Part shown: piece by piece, positions 1 through 63,927 of the stretch | How positions within the stretch are numbered: the first letter of the stretch is position 1 | Layout of the letters: each line of letters begins with the position of its first letter | Source of the DNA: Bilabrum cf. latius | Lineage: Eukaryota | Reading direction: 5' to 3' | Assembly (NCBI GenBank): GCA_965178125.1 | Contig: OZ237742.1 | Span: 1,116,001-1,180,000, forward strand | Length of the DNA stretch: 64,000 bases | Program-made: the position numbers and the translations under genes | Notes under the pieces: model-generated | What the model was told of the DNA's origin: nothing | Database searches by the model: none | The model's input: only the letters and a program-made list of their open reading frames with translations

Positions 1-1
1 A

Positions 2-3000
2 GAAGCAGAGCCACTCGATTCAGAGCTAACGAACGGTGTGCTGTGCACTGAACGCGCAAGCAACGTGTGCGTGCCGCCACTTGTTGGCACGATCGGGGTT
101 GCGGATGCAGCAACTGACTACAGCGAGGCAAAGACGGGCAGCTGGCGCAGCTGCGGCCTACACAAGCTAGATTGTCGCAATAATCGCCCAAGCATATCCC
201 TAGGAACGCAAATCTGCAGCAAGTATGGCGCAGTATGCGGTTTTGATGGTTTGCCTGCATTCTTCCGGTTTTTTGTCCAGCCGTTGCGACCAATGCGGGC
301 GACCTCGAACCCTGGTTTCTGCGTCCAGTAGCCGCTCTCAAGAGCGGTGATACGAATGTAGTATGATTCCTCCGAAGAAACATTTCCACATGGTAACCTG
401 GAGGAAGACTCTGGGAGGGGTATCCTTGCGTACTCCGCTGCCAGGCAGCTTCGCGAGCAGGCCAAGCGAGACTGGGTGCGCGGGGCGATGAACCGTGTGT
501 TTACTTTGGTCGGATAGGGAAGAGCTATTGATCAGGAGCAGGATTTTCTTCGATTTTTCCTCTGCTGTGTCACAATACTATCCGTGGTGATGACTGCCAG
601 TGAAACCCTCGTCAGGATGCACGACGCCAGGTCAACTCTATGCCCAGAGCTCGCCGCAGACCCAGCCTCCCCAGGCAACGCGTCCGTCGCTGTACTTGAG
701 TCCGAGTGTGATAGTCGCGTGAGCGGCGTGCAGTGGTGGTGGCCGTCGGCAGAAGTGCCGATGCACGAGCTGCTCAGGGTTGCGTTTGCGGTAGAAGTGC
801 TCTTCACGGTAGTTGCGCTGATCGAGTACGCCTTGCGAATATGGTCCAGCCCAGTACTGTTTGATAGTAGATTCGACATTTCTGCAAACCGCGCGGCGCT
901 GCTCTCGGCGACGCACCTTAAGCGCTGGTGCAAGTGCTACGACATGCGGTGGTGGTGCGCTCTGCGGTGCTCCAAGTGGTGCGGCCCGTGGTGCTCGGTC
1001 CGCTGGTTCGCGCCCGTTTCATGGAACGAACTGGTCCGACCCGGCGCCTTCGTCGCGCTGTCTCCGCCGCAGACGAGCCTTCTGATCAAGTCGGAGGCGG
1101 AGCGGCTCATCACCGAGGGGGCCGGCCTGCCAGTGGGTGAGTATGACGAGAGCCTTCAAGTTGGGGCAGGGGGTCCCGGGATCGGGATCGGGGACAAGGC
1201 GGCCGGGTCGTCCACGACCACCCGCCCGATTGCTATCCCCAGCAGGAGTGTGACGAGTGGGAGGCGCCGGGACTCCCATCTCGGCCCGGAGGCGCGGAGG
1301 GCGCTGGTGGCCCAGATCACCGGAGTGAAGGATGAAGATAGCGACGGAACTGGCAGCGAGTCTGAGCGGAACCGCGGGGGGTCCATCAGCGGCGGCGGAG
1401 GGAACAATCCCAGCAGCCGGTCGGAGTGGGTGGTGGTCGAGGCCAAGGAGAAGGCGAGCGGGAGCAGCCTGGCGCGTCTCAGGGGCCAGGAGCAGGTTCT
1501 CCACAGGGGGGCGGCTCCGAGTCCCGTGCAGAGAGCCGTTGAGATGGCGACCGCGGCGAGGATCCAGGAGGCCTTGCAGAGGGCGGGGGACCGGACCGGT
1601 GGCGGTGTGACGAGTGCGAGGCGCGCCCCTGGGCTGTCTCGGGAGGGCTCGAGGAGGCGCTCCACGATGCCTCCCAAGCAAGGGGGCGCTCTGCTGGGCT
1701 CTGGTGGCTCTGGCGGCGGTGCGGGGGCGGGCGGCCAGGGTGCCTCAAGTGGGCGGGGCGGTGCTGTGGGCAGGGGTTCCAGGCTGCAGGCGGGCACGGG
1801 GTCCCAGGAGGAGCTTACTGGGGAGGTGCGGGAGGCGGCTGCGGCTGCTGCTGCGGGGACTGCGGCGAGCGGCGGCAGCAGCAGCGCCACGACGGCGAAT
1901 CCGCTGCTGGGTCGATCGGCCAGCGATGGGCACCGCGGCGATGGAACACATCGAGGCGGTAACGACCCCTGGAACGAGGTCCCCGCTTTGACCAGTGGAC
2001 AAACCGGTAGGGCCCGCAGCACCAGCATGGAAGGCAGAGAAGCCGCCGCGCTCCGAGTGGTCGCAAAGCGGCCCCGCACCTCCCTACCCCGTCAGTCCAG
2101 CGGGCGCTGGGCCATGGGGCGCATCATGCTGGAAGAGGAGGACGCCGACACCTCGGGGCGCAGGCGCACCACCGGCCCCGTGTCGCCCTCCCACCGCGGG
2201 GGCAGCCCCACGCCCGCGGGCGCGCGGGGGAACAGATTCTCCTTCGGGGGTGGTGCCGGAGGTGAGCTGGGGGAGGAAGAGGAGGACCCACAGGCCGCAG
2301 CCGTGGCCAAGCAGCTGTCTCCCCTCATGGATGCCCTGCTGAAGCGGCTGCCCGCCGGCGCTGTGGTTGCCTCGAAGGACGAGCTGGACGACGGGCTGCC
2401 GATTGCTTTGGCTGCGGCCTCGGCAGAAGCGGCGGCTGCCCCGATGAGCGTGAACTCCCCGTTGCCAAGGCAGGCGCTGATCGCCGCCGCGAGGCGCCGT
2501 CGAGAGTCGCAGATGCTGCCCCAGCCCGGGCGCGGGTCAGCTGGGGGTTCGGATGCATCGAGCCACGGATCGGCGGAGAGCGGGGGATGGGGGGGTGTGC
2601 CGTCGGGGTCACCCCTGGCACACCCCAGGGGGAAAGATGGGGGCGCCTCGGGGTCGGAAGGGGGCAGGCGCCGCCCGCCGATGCTGTCCTCCGTGGGGAG
2701 GCGTCGCAGCTCGGTGCGCGAGTTGATCGCGCAGATGCGGCCCTAGCACGCCATGCGAGAGCTGCAGCGGCGCAAGCTGGTGAAACCCTCCGCCTCCCCC
2801 GAGCTGGCCCCCATCCGTTGGGTGGAGGTGACGGTCCCGGAGGGCGAGGCCATGGGGGGCGTGTTCGGGGGGATGGACGCAGCTGCGATGCTCTCCGAGG
2901 GCGGCCTCACGGCGCAAGAGATGGAGAGCTTCAAGCGGGCCGCGGCTTCCTCCCGAGTGGCGCTGCTGCCGCGGTACACCGACATCCCGCCGGCCTCGTG

Positions 3001-3859
3001 GTTCTGGTGCAGGGTGCATTTTGCGCTCCGTTGGTTCGAGATGCTGGAGCTGCTCGCCGTCGTGCCACTGCTGGCGCTGGCATTTTCGAGCCTGCAGGGA
3101 GGAAAGGAGGGTCCCCTGACCGTATTCGGTCCTCCCGACTGGCTGGCGCCCAGCATCTGGCGGGTGGTTCGGATGGGCAGGCTGCTTCGGCTCCTGCGGT
3201 TTGCGGAGGGCGTGGAGATCCTGCAGCAGGCATTCGCGAGGAAGAGGCGAGACATGGTGACGGCTGTGCTGGTATGTGCCCTGACCGCTTCCGTGCTGGC
3301 TGTGGCGCTCTACATCGCCGAACAGGAGGGCCCCACGGGGGACAAGATGAAGTTCTTCAGCATACCAGAGGCCGGGTACTTTAGTGTGTCGCTGCTCACC
3401 ACCGTCGGCTTCGGTGACGTCACTGCAAGGTCGCTTGCGGGTCGCATGATCTCCACCATCGGGGCTCTGATGGGCATCGGGCTGTTCACGCTGCCTGGGG
3501 CGACGCTGGCCCGGGGCTTTTAGGAGACGACAGAGGCGGCGGAGCGGGCCCAACGGGAGGGCATGGATCAGCTGCGGGTCACCCTCAGGCGCATCGCACT
3601 GCGGCAGGGGTTCGGACGGTGGGTGACGAGTGTGCGGTCCAAGGCGGACGAGGGCGCGTTGGGCGAGGCCGGGGTCCTGGCCACGAATGGGGGCAGGGCA
3701 CTCGACCCCGAGGCGGCCCGCGCGGCGAAGAGGAGGAGGCTGGCGGGGCAGCTGGTGCAGCTGTGCGGCGGTGACGTCAGTGTGACCCTCCGCACCTTGG
3801 CTGCTGCTCGCCGGGTCATTTCGGTCGAGTAGGAGAGGACCAGCGCGCACCAGAGCTAA
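2..3859 (+). CDS. Voltage-gated (Kv-type, 6TM) potassium channel, 5'-partial, with a very large low-complexity insertion; TAG read as Gln
   Basis: One frame is open from base 2 to TAA 3857-3859 apart from TAGs at 329, 359, 515, 2744, 3521 and 3830. S4 motif RVVRMGRLLRLLR, selectivity filter LLTTVGFGD, S6 GIGLFTLPGATLARGF(Q)E. Confidence 0.85.
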
Positions 3860-3900
3860 GCGTGGGACGGGGGTGGGACACGGGTGGGGGGGCAAGCCTT

Positions 3901-4538: not shown

Positions 4539-7500
4539 ATGTCGGTTGTGAGGGTGGCAACATGCAACCTCAACTAGTGGTCTCTGGACTTCAAGGGAAA
4601 CGTTTCTCGCATCAAGGAATCCATACAAATCGCAAAAAGAAAAGGATGCACGTACCGCCTTGGGCCTGAATTGGAGATTCCTGGGTACGGCTGTGAGGAC
4701 CACTTCTTGGAGCACGATACATTCGTGCATTCCTGGGATGCCCTCTACGAGCTGCTCCCCGAAACGAAAGGTATTTTGTGTGATTTTGGCATGCCTGTGC
4801 TGCACAAAGGTGAGAAATTTAGGCTTTGGCTTCCAGGGGCGTGCTACCCGAAATGACTGGTTTCGATCTGGACACACTGCACTCTGCTACGAAACTGCCC
4901 CGCAGGCGTCAGGTATAACTGCAGAGTATTCTGTTATAATGGTGAAGTACTTTTGATCCGCCCTAAGCTGCATCTCGCGGACGATGGCAACTACAGGGAA
5001 GGGCGATACTTCACGGCATGGAACTGGGAAGCGAAGCTTCGCATGATGGGCGGCACGGGCGTCCCCCTCGAAGAGACACCCCTCCCAGACACGCCAGCAA
5101 AGCGAAAGCTTAGCATCGAGCAGAAATCCACCCAGTTCGGCGTCGGCATTATCGAGTGCCTGGACGGAAGCGTCAGCTCAGAGACGTGTGAGGAGCTCTT
5201 CACGGCCCGCTCCCCCCACATCGCGCTGAGTCTGGACGGTGTGGACATCATCGGAAACGGGAGCGGGTCCCACCACCAGCTGAGAAAGCTCAACACCAGG
5301 GTGGACCTCATCTGCGAAGCCACGGCCAAGTGCGGGGGGGTGTACCTCTACGCGAACTAGCAGGGGTGCGACGGCGGCCGGCTCTACTACGACGGCTGCG
5401 CCCTCGTCTCTGCTGACGGCGTGGTGGTGCAGCAGGGAACACAATTCAGCGTCAGAGACGTGGAGGTGGTGCACGCCGCGGTGGACTTGGAGGCCTCCCG
5501 CTCCTTCCGCAGCGCGATCGCGTCGAGGGGACAGCAGACCGCCACGCAGCCGCCCGTCCCCAGGGTCAAGTGCGGCCTCAGGCTGAGCTGCCACAAGCCG
5601 GGTGAGCCCGTGCCGAACGTGTCAGACCCCGTGCGTCCGCGGATCATCGCCAACGTGGAGCGTAAGCCGGGCATGGAGATGTCTGGGAAGACGGTCACGA
5701 GACTCCCCGGCATGACTGTGGCGGGCAGGAGGCTCTTGCTGCAGAGAACCTTCGAGGAGGAGTCGCAGGGGCCCAGTAGCGGGAGCGGGGCTGCTGCCGG
5801 TGGTGCTGCTGCTACCGCAGCTGGCGCCAGCACCGGAGATGAGTCCGTGCGAGCAGCTGCCTCGGTCAAGGTGTCGGACTGGAACACGGACGAGGACGAG
5901 GAGGAGGACGCCGGGTACTCTGCGTCTTCAGACAAGGCGTACTACCACTCGCCAGAGGAGGAAATCGCCTTTGGACCTGCCTGCTGGATGTGGGACTACC
6001 TCAGGAGGAGCGGGGCCGGCGGTTTCCTGCTTCCGCTGTCGGGCGGCGCAGATTCGTCGAGCACGTGCGCTCTCGTGGGCTCCATGTGCTGCCTGGTGCA
6101 CGACGAAGCCATGCGCGAGCGCAAGAACGGCACTGAGAGGAGCGAGCACTCGGTGACCTCGGAGATCCGAAGGGTAGCACGCATCCCCGAGGATGATCCG
6201 ATCCCTGAGTCGGCGCAGGCTCTCGCCAACCTGCTCATGCACACGGTGTATCTGGGCACCGTCAACAGCAGCAATGCCACAAGAACGAGGGCCAGCCAGC
6301 TCGCCAAGCAGGTCGGCACGTGGCACCTGGAGGTGGACATCGACACCATGGTGGCCTCCGTGGTGGAGACGTTCACGGGCGGCGTGAGCGACGCAAAGAG
6401 GCCCGAGTTCTCAGTCAAGGGCGGCACTGCGTCAGAGGACATCGCGCTCCAGAACGTGCAGGCCAGGCTTCGGATGGTGTTCTCGTACGTGCTTGCTCAG
6501 CTGCTGCCGGAGCACCGCCAAAGAGTCGAGGAGAAGCAGCTAGAGCAGGGCAAGGGCGCCGGCGCAGGCGAAGGCGGTCGCGACCTGGGCGTCGAAGAGC
6601 CGCGTGCTGTCAAGGAGGTTAGCGGCATTGCAGTAGATGCAATAGAAAAAGCTGCCACCAGCGCGAGATACCTCTGCCGTCGTGCGGCGGGCAAGCCCGG
6701 CTTTCTTCTGGTGCTGGGTAGCGCCAACGTCGACGAGGGTCTGCGCGGCTACATGACAAAGTACGACTGCTCGTCTGCCGATATCAATCCCATCGGTAGC
6801 GTGAGCAAGCTGGACTTGAAGAGGTTTCTGTTCTGGGCGGGACACCACCTGTGCTACAGCTCACTCCTGGAGGTCGTGAACGCGGTGCCGACCGCGGAGC
6901 TTAGGCCGAACGTAGAAGACGACGATGGCACAGGAATGGAGGAATTAGGCTCCGGCGCATGGGGTGCAGCTGCCAAGCCAGACGAGGACAAGTCACCGCC
7001 GCCATCAGACCGCTCAATGAAGAAGGCCCGTGAACTGCTCGCCAAGTCGACGCGCCTGTCGTTACAGGCAGCGTCTACGATGATATCTCCAGATGAAGCA
7101 GCAGAGCTGGCCAAGAAGGCTGCCGAGTGCAGCAGGAAAGCGTCTGAGATTCTGTCCGGGGGTCATCACCACAGGCGAGGAGGAAAATCAAGCGGTGATC
7201 TGGGTCGGTCCCGCGGCGTGTCGGAGGCCAGCGGCGCCTCTTCCGTCGCGGCTGCTGCCGGTACAGCAGCCAAAGACCATTCCCAATCGGACGAAGACGA
7301 TATGGGCATGACGTACAAGGAGCTGGGCCGCTTTGGCAGGCTCAGGAAGATGCAGAGGTGCGGCCCTCTGGCCATGTACACTAGGCTGGTCCACGAATGG
7401 GAAAGCACGCCGCCGGAGGAGGTTGCAAGGAAGGTGAAGCGATTCTTCTTCTACTACGCCATCAACCGCCACAAGATGACGGTGCTGACTCCGTCGTACC

Positions 7501-7649
7501 ATGCGGAGAGCTATTCACCCGACGACAACCGGTTTGACCTGCGCCCGTTCCTGTACCCGGTCAAGTTCGATGCCTAGTACCAGGCTATCGACGCTGACGT
7601 GCAGCTGAGACAACAGGCGAAGGAAAGCGAGCGCTAGGGCGAGAGCTAA
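4539..7649 (+). CDS. NADSYN1: Glutamine-dependent NAD+ synthetase (nitrilase-type glutaminase + synthetase); exons 4539-4809 and 4906-7649
   Basis: Motifs ATCNLN(Q)WSLDF, GPELEIPGYGCEDHF, GVRYNCR, RPKLHLADDGNYRE, YLYAN(Q)QGCDGGRLYYDG, LPLSGGADS, LQNVQARLRMV, GSANVDEGLRGYMTKYDCSSADINPIG, NRHKMTVLTPSYHAESYSPDDNRFDLRPFLY. GT-AG intron 4810-4905. TAGs at 4575, 5358, 7575, 7635; ends TAA. Confidence 0.95.
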
Positions 7650-8337: not shown

Positions 8338-9056
8338 TCAACACTCTGTCGTCGTAGGACGGTCCCACCTCGACTGCCCGCTCGTGTGCGAGTAGAACGA
8401 TCTGCCCGTCGCCGGGTCCTTCTACTCGCTCCATCCCGCGGGCAACCCGCTCGCGATTGGCGGCGGCTGGGCAGGAGGTGGCGCGGCTGTGCCGGGTGCG
8501 TGTCCGGGCGGAGCGGCGGCACCGGCAGGCTGGGGCGCTAACTGGGGCGCTAGCTGGGGCCCCGGACCGGCGATCATGTTAAATTGTTGCGGCGCAGGAT
8601 AATGCCCCCCTGCTGACGTCACAATGACTTGTGGCTTTGCCGCCTGGGTGAAGCAGCAGCACGATGCGCAGTAGCAGATGAGCACGCCTCCGCCAATGCA
8701 CAGCGCCAGGGGAATCAGAGTTGCCGCCAGGATAACCCCGAGGATCTGCGCGAAAGAGGACTTGAAATGCGTGAAACCCGTGTCGACTGCCGTTGCCCTG
8801 GGAGATGTCATCACCGAAACACCGGCACTCTTACCTGCTTGCCATCGCACAGAACGTCCGCTTGGCAAGTAGTTAGCGGACCCAAGAAAGACGGGCAACC
8901 ACCTTCACACACGCAGTTGTATTCAAATGTAGTACATTGACTGAGGGACGAGCAGACCTTTTCTGCACCTCCAACGCAAACATCTGCGCAGCATTCTGCC
9001 CTCGCGACGTCCGCTGTCGCGAGCAACACCGCAACGTACAGCATGTATGTCGGCAT
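8338..9056 (-). CDS. Small type I membrane protein: signal peptide, Cys-rich ectodomain, TM helix, Cys cluster, Pro-rich linker, C-terminal WW domain; intron 8746-8834
   Basis: GTAAG...CAG intron joins ...DGKQ|ILGVILAATL... in phase. Reading the TAG at 8422 as Q completes LPAGWSE(Q)KDPATGRSFYSHTSGQSRWDRP (WW pattern); ends TGA. Confidence 0.75.
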
Positions 9057-12300: not shown

Positions 12301-13208
12301 AGAAACGCGCCCACGCTGGATACTCTGGACTTGTGCAGGCATAGCTGCTCCAACGTCACGGGACAGAACGAAATGTCCCACGGGTCATCAACGTTGATCT
12401 GCGATTTTCTCGGTGGGACCAGAGCCCCGCCTTGGCTACCGCTCGGCCTGCCGCTCGGTGGCCGACTGCTCGCCCGAGCATTTGCTCCGCCGCGCGCGAG
12501 CCCCGTGCCCGAGATCGACCTCGCGATTGAGGCTTGCTTCAGGGTGGATTCGGCCGATTTTTTACCTGGTATCTTCAGTTTTTTACTGTTTGGGTCGCCG
12601 TGGGCAGCAATCTAACCCGCAGGTCCAGGTGAGATGCGCCTTCGCTTTCGCGAGCCAAGCAGGTCACCCATGAAGAAGTCCAGGCCATCGCTGTCATCCG
12701 TGGTCCACGCAGAGCTGGACTATTGTGACACTCTAGTGGCAGACTTTGATGCGCCCATTTCGCGCATGCTGGTCTGTGCTGGTGTCCGGTCGCTGCGCTT
12801 CGATCCAGCGCCGGCTGAGGCAAGCACAGGTGCGAGTTCTCTCAGAGCAGGACCTTGGCCCACTGCCTGCAGTCCAAGCTGATTTGAACTCCTTCTTTTG
12901 TCCTGTGAGCTGCCGCGGCTTGTTGTTCGACTACCTTGAGGCTTGGAGTGGAGATTTGACGACAATCGCGACAACTTTCGCTTCTGAGGAAGCACTCCAA
13001 GGGAGGGACCAGCTTTCGGCGAACAGTCAGTTGATGCATCGGTGCTACCACCATCGGAATCACTCGCCGTATCAGCTTGTACTCGCTATTCTGCGGCTGC
13101 TCGCCTAGTCTGCAGCCGTGCTCGTCCTCGATTCCACGAAGAACCTGAGGAGGAATCGCTGTCGCTATCACTGCTACACAAGTCTACTACGTTATTTGCT
13201 GAACTCAT
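9396..13208 (-). CDS. RAD17: Cell-cycle checkpoint clamp loader RAD17/Rad24, ~1270 aa, intronless
   Basis: Single frame ATG 13208 to TGA 9396 with 8 in-frame TAGs. PWDISFCPVTLEQLCLHKSRV (RFC box II-like), Walker A GPPGTGKS, Walker B-like VLLIEDLP, GDLRHAI, LHSIGKLL, acidic C-terminal tail DDDLEDIDEF. Confidence 0.85.
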
Positions 13209-13322
13209 CGTCTAAATGAAGATCTAGCCGACATTGTCGGAGCTAACAGCTGCCAAACGTTGCGGTCCGTTCGTGGGACAGAATCATCGAACCTTCGGAA
13301 GTAGTTCGCTACTGCGCAAGGC

Positions 13323-45997: not shown

Positions 45998-47089
45998 ATG
46001 GAGAGTATTGCAGGAGATGACTCGCAGGAGCATGTTATGATGGACTTGTTTGGAACAGCCAAAACGCAGCAAACTCCCTAGGATGCTGAGGTGGCTGGCG
46101 GTGAGAAGTCTCATGGGCAGCAAGAGGATGTTTTGCAAGAACCGCGTGGATTGTCTGGTATTCATGATAGTGACTCCCAAGATCGGGAAGGATTGGACCG
46201 GGTTCGATCTCAGAGGGCACTAGCGCCTCCGCCGGATCCAGCAGCATCTAGGGAGCAGGTGCTCGGACCTGGCACTCCGGGAAAGTAGGACCAAGCATCC
46301 ACGCCTAGCCTATCAAAAAAAGCTAACACTTCTAGAAAGCCGCAAATCGTGAGCCCCGGTTCAACTGCGTCATCGTTGCGAACCACGGGCACCGAATAGC
46401 AGCAAGCGATGCGGCACAGGCTCCAGGTCGAGGCGCGCGAGTCGATGGCCGGCGAGCCCGCTTACCGGCAGCAAAAGTGGGAAAATGACGCGCTAGTAGC
46501 ACCCATAGCATCTGGGCCAATCGCTAAGGCAGTGACGCCGCCGCAGTAGTAGCACGCACGCAATCTCGCTAGCGGGGGACTGCTGCCTGTCGTGCCAGCT
46601 ACTGGCAGTGGCAGCTGTGCATCGGCGACAGCAGGCGCTGGAAGCCAGCAGGCTCCCAGCACATCTGAGTCTAGCAGCGCGCCCCCTTCCAGCCAGAGCG
46701 CGGTTATGCACCACCGTGCAGTGCAGAAGGAAGAGGAGGCCGATTTGGCGGCTGCTGCCACTGTGCTAGGGCAGGCAGGGCGCCAGGCCTTACCAGCGGG
46801 AGAAGGGATAGCGGCGGTCAGAGACCCGGGCACGCCCTCCACGGTCCCAGTGCACGACACGAATGGCAGGCGTGGTCGGGCTGGAGCGGGTGCTTCTGCC
46901 AGCAGTCAGGGTGGCAATGGTAGTGGAGGTGGGCACCATGCTACTCATGTAGGTGCAGCAGTGGCAAGGGCTCTTCAGATGGGCCCTGCGTCGCTTTCCG
47001 AGGCAACGCCGGTCCTGCCTGGGCCTGGGGAGCTTGCTTCGCCCTTCCGACCCAAGCAATAGCCCGGATCTTCGTCATCGTCCTCTTCT

Positions 47090-47151
<62 letters not shown>

Positions 47152-48508: not shown

Positions 48509-48540
<32 letters not shown>

Positions 48541-50056: not shown

Positions 50057-50097
<41 letters not shown>

Positions 50098-53000: not shown

Positions 53001-56000
53001 ACACCGACCCGGAGCTGGGGCCTGGCGCTGCCGGGGTGTCGATGGTAGAGCAGTCATCGAACGGCGCAGATCATGGTGCAGGACGGAAGCGGCCAGCGGC
53101 TGGCACTGGACAACTAGAATCCCGCAAGTCACGCAGGATCGAAGCAGCCCATAACAAACCCAGCGGCATCGGTGATGCAGGGAGTAGTGGAGAGGAGCAG
53201 GATGACGAAGAGCATAATAATGTAACAAAGATAGCTGCTGGCTCAGACTCGGACAACGAGAGCGCGTCGAACGCTCACGCGGAGGGAGAAGAAGCCGACG
53301 ACCGAGTCAAAGATGAAGAGCAGAACCACGCTAATGAAGACGAAGATGGGCACAAGGACGAGGACAAGGACAGGCTGGTCCTGTTGCAGTCCCAGACGGA
53401 TGCGTACACTCAACTGGAAGAAGTAGCCATCGCCAGCCGAGACGACCCTTCGAAGCTGAAAAAGCTGCCGAGAAGCGTCAGGGAAATCATGCCACACAAC
53501 CTCCCGCCCGCATCTGTGGCCCGTGAGATCCAGGGCAGGAGAACGAGGAAGGCAAAAGGAGGTGCCCATGGCTCTTCTTCCTCCGATGTGGATGGGCAGG
53601 CCAGCACTGGAACAAGCCCTGCTGCAGACGGCAGGGCATCGTCCAAGAGCTCACTTTCCCCAGTCGGACGGTCCTAGCAGGCATCTGCGGCAAGCCCGTC
53701 TGCTGGGCTAGACCCGGTTCTGCAGCGGATCCTGGAGCAGGATGAGGCCAGGAAGGAAGCCGAGAGGGTGCGGGCGGCCGAGGCGGCAGCGGCGGCGGAG
53801 AGGAAACGGTCAGAGCTGGTGCTCAGGCAAAGGCGGCGCGATTCAAGCCAGCCTGGGCAGGAGCTTGTGTACCCGGAGTTTGCAGTTAAAGGCAAGAAGA
53901 TTCTAGTGAGCTCCCTTTTCGTGCCCTGCGTGTGCCCGCCGGTGGATTACGAGCAGCTTCAGCCAGGGACGGACCTGACGGAGGTCCTGCATGTAGGGCA
54001 TGACCTCGCCGAGTATTCCGATGCGCTCTCTGCCCGTGAGTTGCTCGCACTCGGAGTGATCGAGGGGTGGTGGGCAGAGAAGGCGGACGCCCCTAGTGAG
54101 GATGAGGAAGAGGCTGAAGAGAGCGGCACAAAAGCTGCAGTCAGCGTGGCAAATGTATCATTTGGAGGTGGGCTGGATGATGATGACGATGATGACGACG
54201 ATGATGACGACGACGAGGTGCAGGAGGTGCCGGTGGGTACCCGAAGTCATGCTGCTCAGCTAGACGTGTCCATGTCTTCTCTTAACAGCAGTAGCAGCAG
54301 CCCACTCGGCAGCTCGAGCCACGGTCACGGCTCGGAGTCATTCGGCGCATCTTCAGGCTCGTTCTCCCAGGACTGGCGGGTCGTTCGCTCCGGTGTGCTG
54401 CTGGGCTAGCCCATTGTGGGCCTCTCGCCAGCGGACGCTGCCGGGTCTCGCCTCGAGCACGACGATGAGTTGCATCAGATGGAGCTGTCTGAGGTTACGT
54501 TGCTGGAGGCATGGCTCGCTAGCGGGCTGGAAGGTGCTCTTGTAGACGGTTAGGCAGACGACAGCGGAGGACACGGTGCAGGCGATACAGGTGCAGCTGA
54601 AAGCTAGCGTAAAGATGGACATGCTGCTGCAGATGCGGGCTGGCTGCTGCGAGCCGCAAGCGGATGCTTGGCCGTGACACAAGGCGATACGTCAAAGCAG
54701 GATGCTATGGACGTGACACGGGACACTTATGGCATTGGAGAATCGAACGTGCCAAGTAATGCAGCATGCAGTGCCGCAAGGCTTCTGCAGCTTGCGCTGC
54801 GGCCAACTACCGGTTTGGTCGAGGAGTCTGTCGCGCGGTGCGGCGGCGAGGTTGTGAGTCCCTTCGAACAGGACGCCTGGGCGGCAGATGTGGGCTCGCT
54901 GGGCGGCGCTGTGCTCGACTTTGCCGCCCCAAGGACCTATTCGATCGTGCCGACGAACGTGTCCAGAGCCACCCCTGCAGGGGGTTATGCAGTGCTGAGC
55001 TGCTTGCTTTCCGACGCGCGCACAGACAAGCCGTATGCCCCCCATGCTTTGCACCCTTGCGAGTTGATTCCCTCCGGGCGCTCGCTTCGATGCGGGGCGG
55101 GAGTGACCGGCGCTTCAGACGCCGCAAGTCCCGTGGAGATGGGTGAAATGGAAGGCTGGTCCATCGGCGGGTACCACGAATCATCATCCTCGCACTTTGG
55201 TCATACTGGCGCAAGGCTTGGTTAGCTGGCCGGGAACGGGCAAAGGTCAGATGATCGCTAGCCCCTGGGACGGTCGCTGGCAATGGGGTTGGCACGCTGG
55301 CTGCAGGCAGGGGTGGTGGGCCGTTGGGGCGCCGGGCACATGCTAATTCCTGACTTCAGCGATGCGATTGCAGGCGGTCGGGATGCCAGATCAGCGAGGA
55401 CCGCGGTGCACTGGAAGCTTGAGGTCGACGCTAGGGCTGGCTCGATGCTTGGCTCGGTGGTCGTGCACGAGGTTGTCGAGTCTTGGCGCAAGAACCCGAG
55501 GCAGGCCGAGGCGCAGGCGCAGCTGATGCAGCAGTTTGCGCCGTCCCTCTAGCTACTCGGAGCGATTATTGTGTCATCGCCTGCGGAGATGAAAGAGGTG
55601 GCGGATTCTCGCACCAAGCCCAAGTCTGGGACGGCATCAGCAAAGAAGGCCAGGGCTGGGCAGCGGCACAGTGAACCGCCAGCGTGCGTGGCGGTGGTGC
55701 GGCGGCTTTACAGGAAGCACCTCCCAGCTATGTTGGACCAGTATCCTGACGGCTGCCGGTTCGTCCATCTAGAGTGGGTGTATCAGTGCTGTGCCATGGG
55801 CGCACTTGTGGACATAAAGCCCTTTGAATTGGTGCGAGGGGCAGATGGACGGCTGGAGCACCCGGGGCTTGGTGGTGTGGTCGGCGGAATTGCTAGTCTT
55901 TCCATGCAAGCCGATTCTTCAGCATCAACGTCGGCTTCTGCATCTGTGTCATCGCCGCCGCATTCGTCACAGGCAGCGGCGGCGGGGCAGAAGCGGTCCA

Positions 56001-58033
56001 GGCATGCTGGCCTCGGTCATACATCCCAAGATGGCGGCAAATCAAGCAAGAAACGACGAACCGGCGCGGATGCCGGTTCTAGCCCTGCTTCCGAGACCGG
56101 AGAATTGGTCGTCTCAGGCGCTGGCCTAAGCGTTGAGGAGTAGTCCCGAGCTGCAGCCATCAATGCGTCGCGGAGTCTTCCGCCCGCGTGGGCCCATGGC
56201 AGGGCATGGCAACCCCGTTTTGCGAGGGGATGCGTGGCATTCCTTGCCCCCCTTGGTGGGAAGGAGCCCCTGCATGGCTTCGTCTCGCCGCCCGGCTCTT
56301 CTCCTGTGGTCGACACCGTGCTCAGACGGTTCGGATTGGAGGCGTTCCACGTTGGCCGTGCTGCTGGAGCCGTGCAGCCGAGGCAGCTGCAGGCTGCTAG
56401 CTCCGGAGCAGGTACAATGGCTGGTGCAAGCATAAGCACTGCAGGAGTATAGGCCTCCAAAGAAGCATAGAGCTCGTTTGCTGGCTACACCGTGCTGGGG
56501 CTGCCTGCTGAGCAAACAAAAGACGTGATCGCGGCCATCGAGGCTCGGGTGCGCCCGCAGAGTGTTGTGGCTGCCGGTGGCAACCAATCTGCACCGCTGT
56601 CATCTTCATCTTCATCAATGATAGGCCCCTCATAGAGTCCACTGGCTCGGCCTCTTCGGGCCGATGACTTGCTGGTGCACGGCAGAACCAGCGGCAGCGG
56701 CCTGTCGTAGCCCTCGAGCAGCGCTGCTGGTGGATCCGCTGCTGCTGCGACTCAAGTACCCGACCAGCCGCCCCAGCGGGTCACCATGTCGTAGCGGGTC
56801 ATCATCACTGACGTGGAGCTGCGGAGGTACCACCGCCTCGCTACTGCTCTCCGCAGGGAGGGTCCGATTCGCCTCATGACGGGGGACGTGGCCTGGGTGC
56901 GGTGCCCGCGGGCATGGGCTCGTGCAGCGCTCCGGAGCGTTAGCTTGGAGCAGGGGCGCATGACGAGTGCGAGGGCCGCGGCCTTGACCTAGATAGACGG
57001 GGAGATGGCGCGGCTGTGGCAGGGACAAGGTGATGCCTGGCTGGGTGAGCTGGCGGGCGCGGCTGCTGCTGGCTCGGCACCTGCTGCTCCTGCTGCTGCT
57101 GCTGCTAGTAGTAGTCCAAGCGTTGATAAGCATGGCAGGACAATGCATGGTAAGGATAGATCGGGACCTGCCGTTGTGCTGGGACAGGTACAGTGGATGA
57201 CGAGTGCAAGACGTGCAGCTGAAGAAGCCGGGCAGGGGCCGGCAGCCGTTGCGTCAGGTGTCAGTGCGGGTGCTTCTGCTGCTGCTGCATCAACTGCTGC
57301 AGGCGGGCGGCCATGGCTGCTGCTACGGCTGTGCGTCGCTGGATTTGCAGAACCAAGTGCGCCGGGTCACGATGCCGGCAGCCGAGCAGTGACGCAGAGC
57401 CAGCTGGTGGTGCGGCCGACCGGCCTGTGGTTCGCCTGTGATGCCGCAGCGGTGCAGCGAGCCGTGCCCTGCAGCTTCGGGGATGAAGCAGGGCTGCAAA
57501 CAGTCGGGGAACAGCTGTTCTCGGGCGTGCAGGGATCGGCTGCGGTTGGAACGGGGCGAGCCGCTGGCTCGATCCCCGCGAGTGCAAGCATCCAGCGAGC
57601 TCGGCGGCTGCTGGCCCAGGTGCAGGACGAGCTGGGACGAATCGATGCGGGCCCTCAGGCAGCAGCAATAGATGGCGGCATTTTTGATGCTTCAGCCGAT
57701 ACATCTGCCGCCAAAGGCGGCAAGATGCCCCCTCCTCCTCGTCCTCCCGGGCCTGCTAGTACTCGCCCAGAAGCACTTGCTCGGGCGGGGCTGGTCACGC
57801 CTCCTCCCGGACACAGAGGTACTGTGCGGGGGGGTTCAGGGGCAAGCTATACTGAGGGTAGCATTGCTGGCGGGGGTACCCCGGGGATGGGGCCGCTGGG
57901 TGCGGCCAGGAGCGGTCGGGAAGAGCCGCATAATGGAAGCAGCGGAGGTCGGGGCGGAGGGGTTGGGATGAGCGGGGCAGGCTCTGTACCCAGCCTGGCG
58001 TGGCTGGTTCCTCGCCGGGCTTGGCAAGTGTAA
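45998..58033 (+). CDS. Giant (~4011 aa) intronless, largely disordered protein with a UIM and C-terminal BRCT-like motifs; candidate DNA-damage scaffold
   Basis: Eighteen ORF-track fragments share one frame. I read every gap and found only TAG (~39), no TAA/TGA, until TAA 58031-58033. UIM EEEEQLRLALRASLAE; BRCT-like VARCGGEVV and FVHLEWVYQCCAMGALVDIKPF; many SQ/TQ dipeptides. Confidence 0.85.
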
Positions 58034-58901: not shown

Positions 58902-61433
58902 TCACACCCCCACCAACAAGGAAGGCGGGGTGCCATCGCAGGGCAGCCACGTGTGGTTGTTGGCTGCGGACGGGACGCAGCTCCCAGGGCCCTTCGAGCG
59001 ATTCGGAATCGCCTGACGCTGGTACATGGCCAGCTCGGCGGTCAGATTCGCGACCAGCTGCGGCTGCTGCGCCGCCACGCTCTCCCGCTCGCAAGGGTCC
59101 CCCTCCACGTCATACAGGCACCCCGCCCCCGCACCGGGGTCGCAGGGGGTCCCCGGGAGAGGCCCCCCACAGTCCACCGTGTACTTGTCGCTCTGCAGGG
59201 GCAAGCCGGGGGTGGCGATCCAGGTCGTGTTGGCGGTGAACTCGCAGGCTCCCAGCAGGAGCTTCCACTTGCCCTGCCGGATCGCACCGCACAGCCCCTC
59301 CAACCCCGGGGGGGGGGGGCCCTGCTCCTTCTCCTGGGGGGTTACCCCCTCCCAGTTGGGGTACCCCTTGGGCAGAGACAGGTGGATGATACCCTCGCGG
59401 GGAGAAGGCACGCCAGGCCGCGAGACTGCGTCCCACACGTCCTCCCCGTCCCCGGGGGAGAAGGCGGGCTGCTGGAGGGGGCCGACCGAGGAAACTTCCG
59501 GGGCATTTCCGGGAGACGCGCGCCCGGTCACGGCGCGCGCCCAGCGGCTCTCCTAGGAATTCGACTCCGAGTCCCCGATGCCCCTGGCCGCAGCTTCAGT
59601 GAGCGTAAAGTACCAGTCGGACACGTGCACCAGCGACCTCGAGACTCGCCCGGGGGACTGTATGCCGGCACCGTGAATGAAGGCGCTCGAGCGCATGCCT
59701 CCTTCCAGTAGCTGGTGCTTGCGGCCTGCCAGAGGCAAGTTAGAAGCCATGTTGCTGTTGAAGCCGCCCGCGGGTCCCCCTGAGAGACAAAAAAAGAAGA
59801 AGAAGGGGGCGTCCAACTAAGACAGTGGCCGGCAATGGGGGGGAGGCAAGTGGCGTCCAACTAGGACAGGGGCCTGGAATGGGGTAGGCGCTGTCGAGCG
59901 GCGAAGCAACGAGTGGCAACGTGAAGCATGGCTAGCAGTCAAATGAATTCTGCCCTATTGGCCTTCTTGCTTGGCTCTCAGCACTCAGACTCTCAGCACT
60001 CAGACTCTCAGCACTCAGACTCTCAGCACTCAGGCTATAGCGTTGCGCACTCACCGTTGTCTGCCGAAAAGACGATGATCGTGTCGTCCCCGCCATGCCC
60101 CGTCTTCCGCAGGGCCTCCCTGAGCTGGGCCATGCCTTTGTCAGCCTCTGTCACCATGGCTGCCACGGTGCGCCTGTGGATGTCCGAGATCGTGCCGTTG
60201 AACTTGTCGATGGCAGACTGAGGAGCTTCCAAGGGAGAGTGCATGGCCTGCCACGCGAGGTACAAAAAGAAAGGCTCGTCCGCCGGGCGGGTCTCGTGGT
60301 GCTTTTCGATGACACCCGCGGCCGCGTCGGCGAAGAGTCCCGTGGAGTACTTGCCCTGCTCCTTCCACTGCGGCAGCAGGCTCGTCTGATTAGAGGACCA
60401 GAAGTCGAAGCCGTCCCCGCTCGTGTGCTTGAAGTAGTCCTCTGCACCGCCCAGGTACCCGAGGCTCCATTCGGAGAACCCGCGGCGGGTCGGGATCTGG
60501 TCGTAGGAGTACATGCCCAGGTGCCACTTGCCTGCAAGGTGGTGGTAAAGGATAGGCAGTTTGTAGGCGCCGCTGGTGTTGGTGGCAAGTACATGATCCC
60601 GGCTCGGAACGGAGGTTTTGTGGAGTGCGCTGGGGCTCCAATTGGAGGCATGTGCATTGGGACACACTTGATTCGATTCCTGAGCAACCACATCTACTAC
60701 CACGAGGACGCCGCTAGCTTCGCCTCACCAACCTGCGAATGGAAAAATAGACAAATTCAACCTCCAGGCGCTAGAGATTGCGCCGACTAAAATGTCAAAC
60801 TCGCTTGTAAATGGGTGTCGCATGCCAGTGGTAGCCAAGCACGCTCGGCGTCTCACCATGTAGGACCTGTAGCCCATGCCGTTTAGCACCTCTGGCAGAA
60901 GCAGGCAGCGCTCCTCCGTGGGGCGATTGCAGGAAGCATTCAGCCCGCTATTAGTCCCTGGCTGAAGCGGGTCGTAGATGCCGGTGTTAATGATGGCGCG
61001 GCCAGAGACGAGGCTTGATCTAGTCGGCGAGCAAACGGCATTCACGTAGTGCTGGTCCAGGATCACACCGCTGTGCGCAAGGTCATCGATCGTAGGGGTT
61101 GGAATCTAAGTCGAACCATGGAACGAAACGTCGTTCCAGCCAAGGTCTGCGATAAAAATCATTCGAGTTTTCTGGCAATTACATTGGGGCCTCCACCGAC
61201 GCATGCAAGAGCTCACCGTGACTGAAGCCATTCTCACCATCCATCAGTACAAACTGCGGACAGTTAATTTGAATTCGGGAAAATCATGTATGCAATAGTA
61301 GCGGCAGTAGTCAGCATAAGTATGGATGCACAAAACGATGCTGCTGCTTGAGACTCACGATTATATTCGGCCTCTTTGCGTGGGCAACATGCACTCCCAG
61401 CGTCATGAGCAGGGCAGTAAGAAGCTTCAACAT
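58902..61433 (-). CDS. Secreted arylsulfatase B/I/J-like sulfatase, multi-exon
   Basis: Signal peptide, KRPNII|FVLMD|DLGWNDVSFHGST(Q)IPTPTID, CSPTRSSL, GKWHLG, PTRRGF, YLAWQAMHSPL, FSADNG, NLPLAGRK..LLEGGMR, HVSDWYFTL, GKWKLL, CLYDVEGDPCE; ends TGA. Confidence 0.92.
59974..60032. repeat. 15-bp minisatellite (CTCTCAGCACTCAGA) x ~4 in a sulfatase intron
   Basis: Direct tandem copies visible in the sequence. Confidence 0.9.
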
Positions 61434-61644: not shown

Positions 61645-63927
61645 TCACGCCTCCCCTCGCAGCACCGCCTCTAGCCCGGCCCTCATCATCGCAGCCACAG
61701 CGGGGTCTCGGAATTTGTCTCCACCGCCACCCTAAGAGCCAGCTTCATATTTCTGTGCTCTCTTGTTTTTGTTCGCGCCTCTTGACCTGTCTGCCCTGCC
61801 AGCATCATCACCAGGCTCTGCAATCGGCGCTGCACGGCCTCCACCCCCCACCGTCACACCACCAGATGCACTGCCTGCCTCAGGGGCAACGGCACTAGCT
61901 CTTCCTTCTCTCCCAGTGACAGCAGGCCCATCACCGGCACCGGCCAGAGCCCCTGTCCCTGTCCTACCAGCGAAGAAAGCGGATGGATCAGGCAAGGCAT
62001 CTGAGGCAGAGCCGAGTGCACCGCCGTGCGGTGCACCGCCCAAAGGACCCGGGTCATGAAGCCAAGCAGATCCTGACGACTAAGGCTGGGAATGGGACCG
62101 GGACTGGGACAAGGGAGCTCCTGCTGGGAGAGGTGGCTCACTGCTGGCCACGCTGCCGTCCTGTTCAGCAACTGAATAAGTATCGGCCGCGAATCGACCC
62201 GCTGGCTCAAACGTGTGCTCTACCACTCGGCTGCTCATCCTGGGGGCCCGCGCGATCGCGCCCATGCTCGCGCTTCCGCTGCTCCATGTATCGGGCAGCG
62301 TGGGAGGCTGCACCCCACCAAAGCTCGGCTTGGCAGTGGTAGCCATGGAGCTGCCCTAGTCGCTGTGACGAGTGACATCTACAGATTCGGAGCGGTGAGC
62401 ATCGCGCGCATCGCGCAGATCCAGCACGCCTCGCTGGCCCGTCCCGGCTGCCTGCGCGGCGCCTGGTTCCGCAAGCAGCCAAGAGGCATCAAAGCCGGGG
62501 TCCATGCCGACTGTGATTGCTTCTGAAGTGCCTGTCGCCTCGCCTGGACCGCCTGCCGACTAGTCTGACAACGACGGTCTCGCATCAGCAGATGTGCCTG
62601 CTGTGAATGGAGTAGCTTTAGTATGCCGCCTGCCCACTGATGCTGGTTGTGCAGGCAAGCCGGCTGCATCCTCACCTGCCGCCACCGCATACCTTTGCGA
62701 CGTGCTCGAGGCGAGGAGGGGAGAGCCCTGGTGATCTTTGACAGCCTCTTCCTGTTCCTGCTCCTCTATCACCACTGGCAGCGATAAATCGGGAGCGCTT
62801 GCATCGGCGCTCGCTGGAGCACCTGCTTCGGAGCCTTGGGTTGCCGCTGAGGCTGCTGAGGCTGCAATGGCGGCGGCCGCAGTAGCGACTGAAACGGAAG
62901 CTTCGGTGGAGGCGAGGCTCTGTAGCTGGTCCAGGAGCGCCTTTTCGTCCTTATCTTCGATACTAGCTGCGGCTTGGTCGCCTGCGTGGCGACCCGCCTC
63001 GCTACGGACCGGCCTGCCAGCGCCACCGTGCTCGCCTCCGAGCAGCTGCTCCAGTGTGCAGTCCCACTCGCCCGGTGATTCCCCGGTGGAACCCTCCGTC
63101 TGCGAGCTTGCCATTGATTTGAACGCTGCTCGGAGAGAGAGTAGCGCGGCCTGCTTGCTAGCTGGTAGACGCGGCGAGGCCTGAGGATCGTCTCCGGGGG
63201 GCTGATGCTCCTCTGCGGAACTAGCCCCCAATGATGCACCTGTCTATGATGTCTAATCACCAAGTGCGCTGACTGCTGCGGATATTGATGCGGATGCGCC
63301 CTCTCGTGGCACTGCGTCTGCTCGCGGAGTACCCGTGCTGGCCTTGACGGCACCATTCTGCTAATCTGCGCCTGTCCCAGTCACAACTTCGGAATCTGAG
63401 CTGTCCGAATCCGAGAGGTCTGCATCCAGTGCGCCATACATTTGTGATGCTGAGCTGATTGAGGGTGGCTCAGCGGTGGTGGGCGTCCTATCGGTCCCGG
63501 CACCTGTGGCAGCGGCGTCAAGGAGCTACAAGAGGTCTTGCTCTCCAGCGTCAGCAATACGTAGCGACCCGTTCATGCGTAAAGACTTGTCGGCGATGCC
63601 ATTGACTTCCTCCATGATACCGTCCATGTCTGACGCCCCATCCACGGTGGAGCGTTGTGCTACCACCTCGAACTGGGCCCGACTATCACCTCCAGGCATT
63701 GATGCGCGTTCCTGGATAGTTAAAACACGGCTGATGTACTTGCCAGGACTATCTGGGAACATCGAGCAGTCACAGAAATCGTCTGAATCCACGCTAGTTG
63801 ATTCAAGCACTTGTGAGACAGTGTCATCTGCTGAGGCAGCACCGCTTCCTTCTTCACCGTTTCGCTCGGTCTCAATCTAAACATCCAGAATCCCAAGATC
63901 GACGAAGCCGTCTCCTTCTGCCTCCAT
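61645..63927 (-). CDS. Hypothetical low-complexity acidic protein, ~760 aa, intronless
   Basis: ATG 63927 (in-frame TGA upstream) to TGA 61645. Four ORF fragments share the frame and are joined only by TAG codons. No recognisable domain. Confidence 0.7.

What the first reader, a model, noticed from the sequence alone, without database searches (positions are those of the whole stretch)
2..63927. Non-standard nuclear genetic code: TAG = glutamine while TAA and TGA stay stops
Seen: in-frame TAGs interrupt otherwise intact genes throughout the window. They fall where the families conserve Gln: NAD synthetase TCNLN*WSLDF (4575; family NLNQWALDF), YLYAN*QGCDG (5358; YANQxGCDG), KFDA*Y (7575; family WQF), and arylsulfatase FHGST*IPTP (61106; HGSxQIPTP). 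They also sit inside Gln runs (CAG TAG TAG near 46544; N**FQQL*RQ near 25860). Essential motifs lie downstream of TAGs (M20 metal-binding His, second half of the WW domain, RAD17 tail). All 18 gene ends I traced are TAA or TGA, and no in-frame exonic TAA/TGA was needed. Established: UAA and UAG are almost always reassigned together in eukaryotes; UAG-only Gln codes are rare (reported for the fornicate Iotanema and some phyllopharyngean ciliates). Inference: this GC-rich, intron-containing genome does not resemble those lineages, so it may be an independent UAG-only reassignment requiring a tRNA-Gln(CUA) and an eRF1 that distinguishes UAA from UAG.
Basis: partly seen in the sequence, partly recalled or inferred. 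Interest (0 to 1): 0.96.

Follow-up and report, generated by a model that had tools for sequence, protein, structure and literature searches.

The report
Stop codon TAG read as glutamine
In this GC-rich protist nuclear DNA, probably from a relative of the flagellate Cafeteria, the stop codon TAG is used inside genes as a glutamine codon while TAA and TGA still end genes, a rare kind of genetic-code change.

Summary
If TAG is read as a residue, the window holds ORFs of 4029, 1295, 1285, 1106 and 930 aa. Under the standard code the longest is 742 aa. In 100 simulations the longest TAG-sense ORF was 783 aa. Nine long ORFs carry 86 in-frame TAGs.

Contigs from three other runs (two studies) lack two GT..AG introns exactly. 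They match the window letter for letter across five of these TAGs, so editing and assembly error are unlikely.

In NAD synthetase, three of three alignable TAGs fall on columns where Gln is the commonest residue: 67 of 77, 62 of 127 and 61 of 85 homologues. Chance is about 6e-6. Four other alignable TAGs sit in variable columns and say nothing.

TAA never occurs in frame, although about 29 would be expected if it were also Gln. It ends 5 of 12 ORFs.

A single-gene tree puts the organism beside Cafeteria, a stramenopile. Nine literature searches found no nuclear code change reported in that group.

The code itself is already known from Iotanema and some ciliates. The tRNA-Gln(CUA) and eRF1 could not be examined.

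The parts
2..3859 (+). Voltage-gated K+ channel-like ORF. It is 1285 aa, open at the 5' end of the window, and ends at TAA. In-frame TAGs start at 329, 359, 515, 2744, 3521 and 3830.
   Evidence: Pfam Ion_trans E 5e-18 and Ion_trans_2 E 6e-11. Matches Kv channels in PDB. TAG positions, terminator.
4539..4809 (+). Glutamine-dependent NAD synthetase, exon 1. TAG at 4575-4577.
   Evidence: Human NADSYN1 (6ofb) E 1e-30, with the TAG aligned to the Q of LNQW. Gln in 67 of 77 aligned homologues.
4810..4905 (+). Spliceosomal intron of 96 nt, GT..AG.
   Evidence: Contigs of runs X5, X6 and X7 join across it. The contig of X1 runs through it unspliced. Boundaries read.
4906..7649 (+). NAD synthetase exon 2, ending at TAA 7647-7649. 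TAGs at 5358, 7575 and 7635.
   Evidence: 6ofb E 2.5e-166, with TAGs aligned to the Q of ANQKGCDG and PWQF. Gln in 62 of 127 and 61 of 85 homologues. The alignment to P0242 runs through TAG 7635 to the last residue.
8341..8904 (-). Frame of a WW-domain protein gene. TAG at 8422-8424 lies inside the WW domain. An 89-nt GT..AG intron lies at 8746-8834. The frame ends at TGA.
   Evidence: Pfam WW E 4.4e-8 over residues 154-183, with the TAG at residue 161. Intron removed in contigs of X5 and X6.
9399..13283 (-). RAD17-like checkpoint clamp-loader ORF of 1295 aa with 10 in-frame TAGs. Ends at TGA.
   Evidence: Pfam Rad17 P-loop E 2.2e-6. TAG positions.
21479..23164 (+). SYS1 Golgi membrane protein ORF with 2 in-frame TAGs, one inside the SYS1 domain. 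Ends at TGA.
   Evidence: Pfam SYS1 E 1.7e-30 over residues 12-149, with the TAG at residue 142.
24797..26035 (-). Unknown ORF of 413 aa with 11 in-frame TAGs, including N**FQQL*RQ.
   Evidence: No Pfam family.
26257..28335 (-). M20 peptidase-like ORF of 693 aa with 4 in-frame TAGs. Two lie upstream of the SHLDTV motif. Ends at TAA.
   Evidence: Pfam M20_dimer E 1.1e-10. PDB 3io1. TAG positions.
28595..30726 (-). Iduronate-sulfatase-like gene, several exons. An exon at 30313-30726 carries an in-frame TAG.
   Evidence: PDB 5fql and 6ioz E 2e-6. Pfam SGSH_C on 28595-29482.
31362..34394 (-). Beta-helix protein gene in two long frames, 32442-34394 and 31362-32072. Carries 3 in-frame TAGs.
   Evidence: Weak Pfam Beta_helix hit, E 7e-4. 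TAGs. No PDB match for the second frame.
35041..36396 (-). Branched-chain 2-oxoacid dehydrogenase E1 alpha (BCKDHA). No TAG. Ends at TGA, co-terminal with homologues.
   Evidence: Pfam E1_dh E 1e-94. Homologues. Co-terminal with 4 of the 6 homologues compared, P0122, P0124, P0168 and P0162; P0121 and P0123 run 2 and 5 residues longer.
37185..38426 (-). CRAL/TRIO-domain protein ORF. No TAG. Ends at TAA.
   Evidence: Pfam CRAL_TRIO E 1e-22. Terminator.
39431..40597 (-). AP-1 adaptor mu subunit, main exon. No TAG in the homologous part. Ends at TGA.
   Evidence: PDB AP-1 mu E 2e-157. Same C-terminus, LLRMG, as the 95%-identical relative P0001.
42322..45639 (-). Orphan ORF of 1106 aa with 11 in-frame TAGs. 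Has P-loop-like motifs. Ends at TGA.
   Evidence: No Pfam family. No homologue of similar length.
45944..58033 (+). Giant ORF of 4029 aa, largely low-complexity, with 39 in-frame TAGs and no TAA or TGA. Ends at TAA, with a second in-frame TAA 9 codons later.
   Evidence: No Pfam family.
58905..61243 (-). Arylsulfatase B-like gene in at least three frames. TAG at 61106 in FHGST*IPTP.
   Evidence: Pfam Sulfatase E 8e-17 and 2e-11. PDB 1fsu E 1.6e-15.
61648..63954 (-). Unknown low-complexity ORF of 769 aa with 9 in-frame TAGs. Ends at TGA.

Best explanation
This is nuclear DNA of a GC-rich, intron-poor protist, probably a bigyran stramenopile allied to bicosoecids such as Cafeteria. Its cytoplasmic translation reads UAG as glutamine. 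UAA and UGA remain the only terminators.

Shown here: TAG is a frequent sense codon, about 0.8% of codons and about 16% of Gln codons in the long ORFs. It is kept unchanged in spliced transcripts. It stands at conserved Gln positions. TAA and TGA are excluded from reading frames and close them.

Inferred from the other lineages with this code: decoding needs an efficient tRNA-Gln with anticodon CUA, or an equivalent. It also needs an eRF1 that has lost recognition of UAG while keeping UAA and UGA. A protein with 39 UAGs could not be made by leaky read-through. TAG codons would then arise mostly as silent C-to-T changes of CAG.

The absence of TAG from the three most conserved genes hints that UAG is decoded less well than CAG, or that the change is recent.
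For: 1. ORF lengths. Five ORFs of 930-4029 aa are open only if TAG is read. The simulated maximum was 783 aa in 100 runs.

2. Eukaryotic genes are interrupted only by TAG: NAD synthetase, the WW domain, SYS1, RAD17, a Kv-like channel, M20 and sulfatases.

3. Transcripts. Contigs of X5, X6 (one study) and X7 (another) skip 4810-4905 and, for X5 and X6, 8746-8834. Both are GT..AG introns. These contigs show 0 other letters across TAGs 4575, 5358, 7575, 7635 and 8422. They start at 4430-4436 in all three runs, as transcripts would.

4. Gln identity. Among 150 NAD synthetase representatives, Gln is the commonest residue at all 3 alignable TAG columns (67 of 77, 62 of 127, 61 of 85). Gln is the commonest residue in only 14 of the 758 other columns. 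The chance of 3 of 3 is 6e-6. The log10 odds are +3.97 for Gln and -0.75 for the next residue, Ala. Human NADSYN1 has Q at all three.

5. TAA. No in-frame TAA occurs, where 29 are expected if TAA:TAG followed CAA:CAG (Poisson 3e-13). TAA ends 5 of 12 ORFs although it makes up only 13% of out-of-frame TAA+TGA (P 0.014).

6. True ends. BCKDHA ends at TGA exactly where 4 of the 6 homologues compared end (P0122, P0124, P0168, P0162); the other two run 2 and 5 residues longer. NAD synthetase aligns through its last TAG to the TAA.

7. Lineage. In the BCKDHA tree the query is sister to the Cafeteria clade (95/94). The named best AP-1 mu hits are stramenopiles.
Against: The Gln assignment rests on three columns of one gene. 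Four other alignable TAGs lie in variable columns: arylsulfatase Q/D/D/S/gap, iduronate sulfatase D and K, WW K/R/K/A/R, and Kv N. On those four alone, N, D, K and E score above Q. The fourth NAD synthetase TAG is in an unconserved tail, with 0 Q among 8 aligned.

Clustering of TAG with Gln codons is not significant.

The runs with spliced contigs are labelled only 'RNA?', and X5 'probably DNA'. That they derive from RNA is my inference from the splicing.

The zero counts of TAA and TGA in frame are partly built into how the ORFs were chosen.

No tRNA, eRF1 or peptide evidence is available, and only one 64-kb window was read. The placement near Cafeteria comes from one gene with few named rows.
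Confidence: 0.88

Rival explanations
1. Ambiguous code. UAG is read as Gln inside genes but still terminates at some gene ends, depending on context, as in Condylostoma, karyorelict ciliates, or UAA in Blastocrithidia.
For: The ORF method cannot see a TAG terminator. Two genes have a TAG within 10 codons of their TAA: NAD synthetase at 7635 and the channel at 3830. About 0.9 such cases are expected by chance.
Against: None of the three homology-checked ends is a TAG. The NAD synthetase alignment to P0242 continues past its last TAG. All 12 long ORFs reach a TAA or TGA without a long unaligned tail.
Confidence: 0.06
2. TAG is a sense codon for another residue, for example Glu, Lys, Asn, or Ser as in Scotinosphaera, or Leu as in the rhizarian exLh.
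For: In the four variable columns, the aligned residues are D, K, R, N, S and A more often than Q.
Against: The three conserved NAD synthetase columns are Gln in 87%, 49% and 72% of homologues. Every other residue has negative log odds. Leu reaches 30 of 127 in one column only. Ser reaches at most 5.
Confidence: 0.03
3. Both UAA and UAG are Gln (the common UAR code, NCBI table 6), and TAA is merely rare because the genome is GC-rich.
For: TAA is the rarest of the three triplets in the window: 386 against 946 TAG and 1633 TGA, both strands counted.
Against: In-frame TAA count is 0 where about 29 are expected (P 3e-13). TAAs appear directly outside the ORFs; there are 4 within the 169 codons flanking the giant ORF. 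TAA closes 5 of 12 ORFs. Reading TAA as sense lengthens no long ORF.
Confidence: 0.02
4. Artefact: pseudogenes, a systematic C-to-T assembly error at CAG, or RNA editing that restores CAG.
For: None found.
Against: Only one of the three stop triplets is in frame. Contigs from four runs of three studies agree letter for letter, and the spliced ones keep TAG.
Confidence: 0.01

Closest known systems
Iotanema spirale (fornicate) nuclear code: UAG = Gln, UAA and UGA stop (PMC5304391; abstract start and passages seen)
   Same: The same codon table. UAG alone is reassigned to Gln and UAA is kept as a stop, breaking the usual coupling of UAA and UAG.
   Different: Iotanema is an anaerobic metamonad. 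The organism here has a mitochondrial BCKDH E1 alpha and groups with stramenopiles. For Iotanema an eRF1 change (T32G in the GTS motif) was described. Here eRF1 was not seen.
Phyllopharyngean ciliates (two independent lineages) and Protocruzia tuzeti: UAG = Gln only (PMC11687900; Discussion passages seen)
   Same: The same reassignment, again arising independently of UAA.
   Different: Those are ciliates. This window has 55-67% GC, ordinary 89-96-nt GT..AG introns and stramenopile affinities.
UAR = Gln codes (NCBI table 6 type): many ciliates, Hexamita, Streblomastix, ulvophyte green algae, Amoeboaphelidium (listed in PMC11687900 and PMC5304391; passages seen)
   Same: A stop-to-Gln change, presumably through a mutated tRNA-Gln.
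   Different: In those codes TAA is sense as well. Here TAA is absent in frame and acts as a terminator.
Other UAG-only reassignments: rhizarian exLh (Leu) and Scotinosphaera (Ser) (passage of PMC11687900)
   Same: UAG is decoupled from UAA in a non-ciliate nuclear genome.
   Different: The residue differs. Leu and Ser do not fit the NAD synthetase columns.
NCBI translation table 15 ('Blepharisma nuclear'; TAG = Gln). Recalled, not taken from any call.
   Same: It is the formal table matching the reading used here.
   Different: It names a ciliate. I did not check its present standing.

Membership tests
UAG-to-Gln-only nuclear code (Iotanema / Protocruzia / phyllopharyngean type) | In-frame TAG in genuine protein-coding genes | tested here: met
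   86 TAGs in nine long ORFs. TAGs lie inside the NAD synthetase, WW, SYS1 and sulfatase homology regions.
UAG-to-Gln-only nuclear code (Iotanema / Protocruzia / phyllopharyngean type) | TAG aligns to conserved Gln in homologues | tested here: met
   3 of 3 alignable NAD synthetase columns have Gln as the commonest residue (67 of 77, 62 of 127, 61 of 85); chance 6e-6. Four further columns are variable and uninformative.
UAG-to-Gln-only nuclear code (Iotanema / Protocruzia / phyllopharyngean type) | TAA and TGA are not used as sense codons and do terminate genes | tested here: met
   0 TAA in frame against 29 expected. ORF ends are 5 TAA and 7 TGA of 12. Three ends are confirmed by homologues.
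UAG-to-Gln-only nuclear code (Iotanema / Protocruzia / phyllopharyngean type) | TAG present, unedited, in mature mRNA | tested here: met
   Intron-less contigs of X5, X6 and X7 carry 5 TAGs with 0 other letters. That these runs are RNA is inferred from the splicing.
UAG-to-Gln-only nuclear code (Iotanema / Protocruzia / phyllopharyngean type) | TAG is not used as a terminator | tested here: inconclusive
   None of the 3 homology-checked ends is TAG. The sample is too small, and the ORF method is blind to TAG terminators.
UAG-to-Gln-only nuclear code (Iotanema / Protocruzia / phyllopharyngean type) | A tRNA-Gln able to read UAG (anticodon CUA) | not testable with these tools
   No tRNA gene in the window, no Rfam match, and no whole genome held.
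UAG-to-Gln-only nuclear code (Iotanema / Protocruzia / phyllopharyngean type) | eRF1 N-domain altered so that UAG is no longer recognised | not testable with these tools
   eRF1 is not encoded in the window, and no genome was available.
UAR-to-Gln code (table 6 type) | TAA as well as TAG in frame at Gln positions | tested here: not met
   0 in-frame TAA in about 11,300 codons of long ORFs. Reading TAA as sense gives no longer ORFs.
Ambiguous stop/sense codes (Condylostoma, karyorelicts, Blastocrithidia UAA) | The same codon is both sense inside genes and the terminator at gene ends | tested here: inconclusive
   No TAG terminator seen at 3 checked ends. Two TAGs lie within 10 codons of a TAA, which is compatible with chance.

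The most novel reading that the evidence does not exclude
This may be the first nuclear genetic-code change in a stramenopile. It would be an independent capture of UAG alone for glutamine in a GC-rich, free-living relative of Cafeteria, with UAA kept as a working stop.

TAG already supplies about one Gln codon in six, yet is absent from the most conserved genes. The lineage may therefore be caught partway through a codon capture driven by GC pressure. Relatives at 95% and 70% AP-1 mu identity exist in public data and could be used to date the change.
Probability: 0.55. Interest if true: 0.82.

Novelty: new member of a known kind. Interest (0 to 1): 0.74.

Why it matters
UAA and UAG almost always change meaning together. 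Each lineage that separates them tests how eRF1 and tRNAs can tell the two codons apart.

A case in a GC-rich stramenopile would differ from the known ones in three ways. It lies outside the ciliates and metamonads. The genome has ordinary genes and introns. DNA data and apparently transcript data already exist for it. That would give a new system for studying how a stop codon is captured.

There is also a practical point. Gene prediction with the standard code would cut most long genes of this organism into pieces. All 9 long TAG-bearing ORFs here would be affected. Metabolic or phylogenomic inferences from such an annotation would be distorted.

Tried and rejected
- Whole genome and earlier findings were not available. 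Genome-wide inference, a tRNA-Gln(CUA) search and eRF1 inspection were therefore impossible.
- ARAGORN and Rfam found nothing in the window.
- No RNA holder is listed among the runs.
- Context statistics were weak or useless. The Gln-neighbour frequency of TAG (12.8%) is barely above that of Glu codons (11.4%). A flanking-residue likelihood ranked Pro, Gly and Ser first, so it carries no information.
- I looked for a close relative's DNA to count TAG-to-CAG exchanges. The orphan 1106-aa protein found no homologue of similar length. In metagenome contigs it found only two weak 30%-identity loci, L001 and L002, which I did not pursue.
- Several TAG columns could not be aligned. The AP-1 mu TAG lies upstream of the homology. 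The M20 TAGs lie outside the one PDB match. The beta-helix exon has no PDB match.
- The ESM Atlas does not accept proteins read under a changed code. I dropped that step.
- Nine literature searches and passages of PMC12614181 and PMC13768787 yielded no report of a nuclear code change in stramenopiles. Subscription journals are not covered.

Full report
**What the window is.** The window has 55-67% G+C. It carries plainly eukaryotic genes on both strands. These are a voltage-gated K+ channel-like protein, glutamine-dependent NAD synthetase, a WW-domain protein and a RAD17-like protein. There are also SYS1, an M20 peptidase, two sulfatases and a beta-helix protein. The rest are BCKDH E1 alpha, a CRAL/TRIO protein and AP-1 mu. 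There is no tRNA gene and no Rfam match.

**The observation.** Under the standard code the longest stop-to-stop frame is 742 aa. With TAG read as a residue there are frames of 4029, 1295, 1285, 1106 and 930 aa, each at a single place and in one frame.
- Reading TAA as sense changes nothing.
- Reading TGA as sense gives long frames only in the 123-bp tandem array at 15.9-20.9 kb, in several frames of both strands. That is a repeat artefact.
- In 100 second-order Markov simulations of the window, the longest TAG-sense frame averaged 508 aa and never exceeded 783 aa.
- In 12 long ORFs the reading frame holds 87 TAG, while TAA and TGA appear only as terminators. The other two frames of the same stretches hold 70 TAA and 463 TGA.

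**TAG is not an error and is not removed from transcripts.** Laying contigs of four public runs on 1-15000 gave three results.
- The probable source run X1 runs straight through 4810-4905.
- Contigs of X5 and X6 (a second study) and X7 (a third) join 4807 to 4904, skipping a 96-nt GT..AG intron.
- X5 and X6 also skip an 89-nt GT..AG intron on the minus strand (8746-8834; boundaries checked).

These spliced contigs show 0 other letters and 0 gaps. They cover TAGs 4575, 5358, 7575, 7635 and 8422. They begin at 4430-4436 in all three runs and break near gene borders, as transcript assemblies do.

The tool labels these runs only 'RNA?', and X5 'probably DNA'. Their origin from RNA is my inference from the splicing. 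Other X5 contigs, not shown to be spliced, cover 12 more of the 21 in-frame TAGs in 1-13283, again without a difference.

**Which residue.**
- Human NADSYN1 (6ofb) has Q opposite all three alignable NAD synthetase TAGs, in LNQW, ANQKGCDG and PWQF.
- I then searched 1.84 billion representatives with the NAD synthetase frame. I aligned the best 150 to the two exons, with X at each TAG. Gln stands in 67 of 77, 62 of 127 (Leu 30) and 61 of 85 aligned homologues.
- Among the other 758 columns with at least 50 homologues, Gln is the commonest residue in only 14. The query has CAG or CAA at 11 of those.
- The chance that three random columns are all Gln columns is 6e-6. The summed log10 odds are +3.97 for Gln and negative for every other residue.

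This is the whole positive case for Gln, and it comes from one gene.
- The fourth NAD synthetase TAG is in the unconserved tail (0 Q of 8 aligned).
- Four further alignable TAGs lie in variable columns: arylsulfatase Q/D/D/S/gap, iduronate sulfatase D and K, WW K/R/K/A/R, and Kv channel N.
- On those four alone, N, D, K and E score above Q.
- They fit a polar residue but do not identify it.
- TAG next to Gln codons occurs at the quoted sites but is not enriched overall.

**TAA and TGA.**
- If TAA were also Gln, in the CAA:CAG proportion, about 29 in-frame TAAs would be expected in the TAG-bearing ORFs. There are none (Poisson 3e-13).
- With TGA as the only stop, the long genes grow by just 0-169 codons. 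The TAAs sit immediately outside them. The giant ORF, for instance, is split as 40 / 4029 / 9 / 97 / 23 codons.
- TAA closes 5 of 12 long ORFs although it is only 13% of out-of-frame TAA+TGA (P 0.014).
- BCKDHA ends at TGA exactly where four of the six homologues compared end; the other two run 2 and 5 residues longer. AP-1 mu ends at TGA with the same last residues as its 95% relative. NAD synthetase aligns through its last TAG to the residue before TAA.
- Whether TAG ever terminates cannot be settled from one window.

**Codon usage.** TAG makes up 87 of 540 Gln codons (16%) in the TAG-bearing ORFs. It makes up 0 of 43 in AP-1 mu, BCKDHA and CRAL/TRIO, the most conserved genes with the highest GC3 (Fisher 0.0013). 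The grouping was chosen after seeing the data, so this is a hint only.

**Who it is.**
- The best named AP-1 mu hits are stramenopiles: Ectocarpus, Tribonema, Mallomonas, Phytophthora, Albugo and Florenciella. All are at 62-66% identity. Unnamed relatives reach 95% and 70%.
- For BCKDHA the best named hit is Cafeteria roenbergensis (64%), followed by MAST-4, oomycetes and Hondaea.
- I built a maximum-likelihood tree of 43 rows. These were the query, 21 named hits and 21 unnamed hits, chosen from the 120 listed; the rest were left out.
- It places the query as sister to a four-row clade holding Cafeteria (95/94). Both lie inside a 14-row clade (99/97) separate from oomycetes, Hondaea, MAST-4, fungi and animals.
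- This is one gene with few names, so a bigyran or bicosoecid affinity is probable but not established.
- It does exclude the known UAG=Gln lineages, which are fornicates and ciliates.

**Comparison with what is known.**
- From passages of PMC11687900: UAG-only Gln is reported for Iotanema spirale, Protocruzia tuzeti and two phyllopharyngean lineages. UAG-only Leu is reported for a rhizarian and UAG-only Ser for Scotinosphaera. UAR=Gln is reported for many ciliates, Hexamita, Streblomastix, ulvophytes and Amoeboaphelidium.
- From passages of PMC5304391: UAA and UAG are normally coupled, and Iotanema eRF1 carries T32G in the GTS motif.
- The codon table here is therefore known. I recall it as NCBI table 15, but that comes from no call.
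- What appears new is the lineage. Nine full-text searches and passages of two recent papers gave no report of a nuclear code change in stramenopiles.
- Supplements and subscription journals were not searchable.

**Mechanism.** It is shown that UAG is a frequent, efficiently used sense codon. An ORF with 39 of them excludes leaky read-through. It is inferred that a tRNA-Gln reads UAG, most simply through a CUA anticodon derived from tRNA-Gln(CUG). It is also inferred that eRF1 has lost UAG recognition while keeping UAA and UGA. Neither could be examined.

**Verdict.** This is a new member of a known kind of code. It is of real interest to people who study code evolution, and it matters for anyone annotating this genome.

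Noticed in passing
window 15943-20908: A tandem array of about 40 copies of a 123-bp unit (97% matches) with strong A-over-T skew. It creates spurious long frames on both strands.
   Followed up: partly
window 13323-15747, 21183-21332: Two identical 340-bp direct repeats (13323-13662 and 15408-15747) bound a 2.4-kb stretch. That stretch has 5-10 times the DNA depth of its surroundings in X1 and very high depth in X5 and X6. Contigs of X1, X5 and X6 carry loose ends at 13323. It looks like a multi-copy, possibly LTR-bounded, transcribed element. A 150-bp stretch (15258-15407) recurs at 21183-21332, on the far side of the tandem array.
   Followed up: partly
window 42322-45639 (-): An orphan 1106-aa protein with a Walker A-like GSRGIGKT and a Walker B-like LLIDE. 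It has no Pfam family and no homologue of similar length among 5.8 billion proteins.
   Followed up: partly
window 45944-58033 (+): A 4029-aa, largely Ser/Ala/Gly/Gln-rich ORF with no Pfam domain. The last 900 or so residues are less repetitive and may hold a folded domain.
   Followed up: no
window 35041-40597: TAG is absent from the three most conserved genes, BCKDHA, CRAL/TRIO and AP-1 mu (0 of 43 Gln codons). Elsewhere it makes up 16% of Gln codons. Its share seems to fall as GC3 rises.
   Followed up: partly
window 28595-34394 (-) and 58905-61243 (-): Two intron-rich sulfatase genes, one iduronate-sulfatase-like and one arylsulfatase B-like. A large beta-helix protein gene lies next to the first. 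They may act together on sulfated polysaccharides.
   Followed up: no
window 35041-36396 (-): The BCKDHA frame has no Met upstream of where homology begins (first Met at residue 61, homology from residue 54). The start and the presequence probably lie in an upstream exon.
   Followed up: no
runs for window 3001-13000: A fourth study's run (X8, organism D) holds 14% of the sampled words. It may be a relative or may hold only part of the locus.
   Followed up: no
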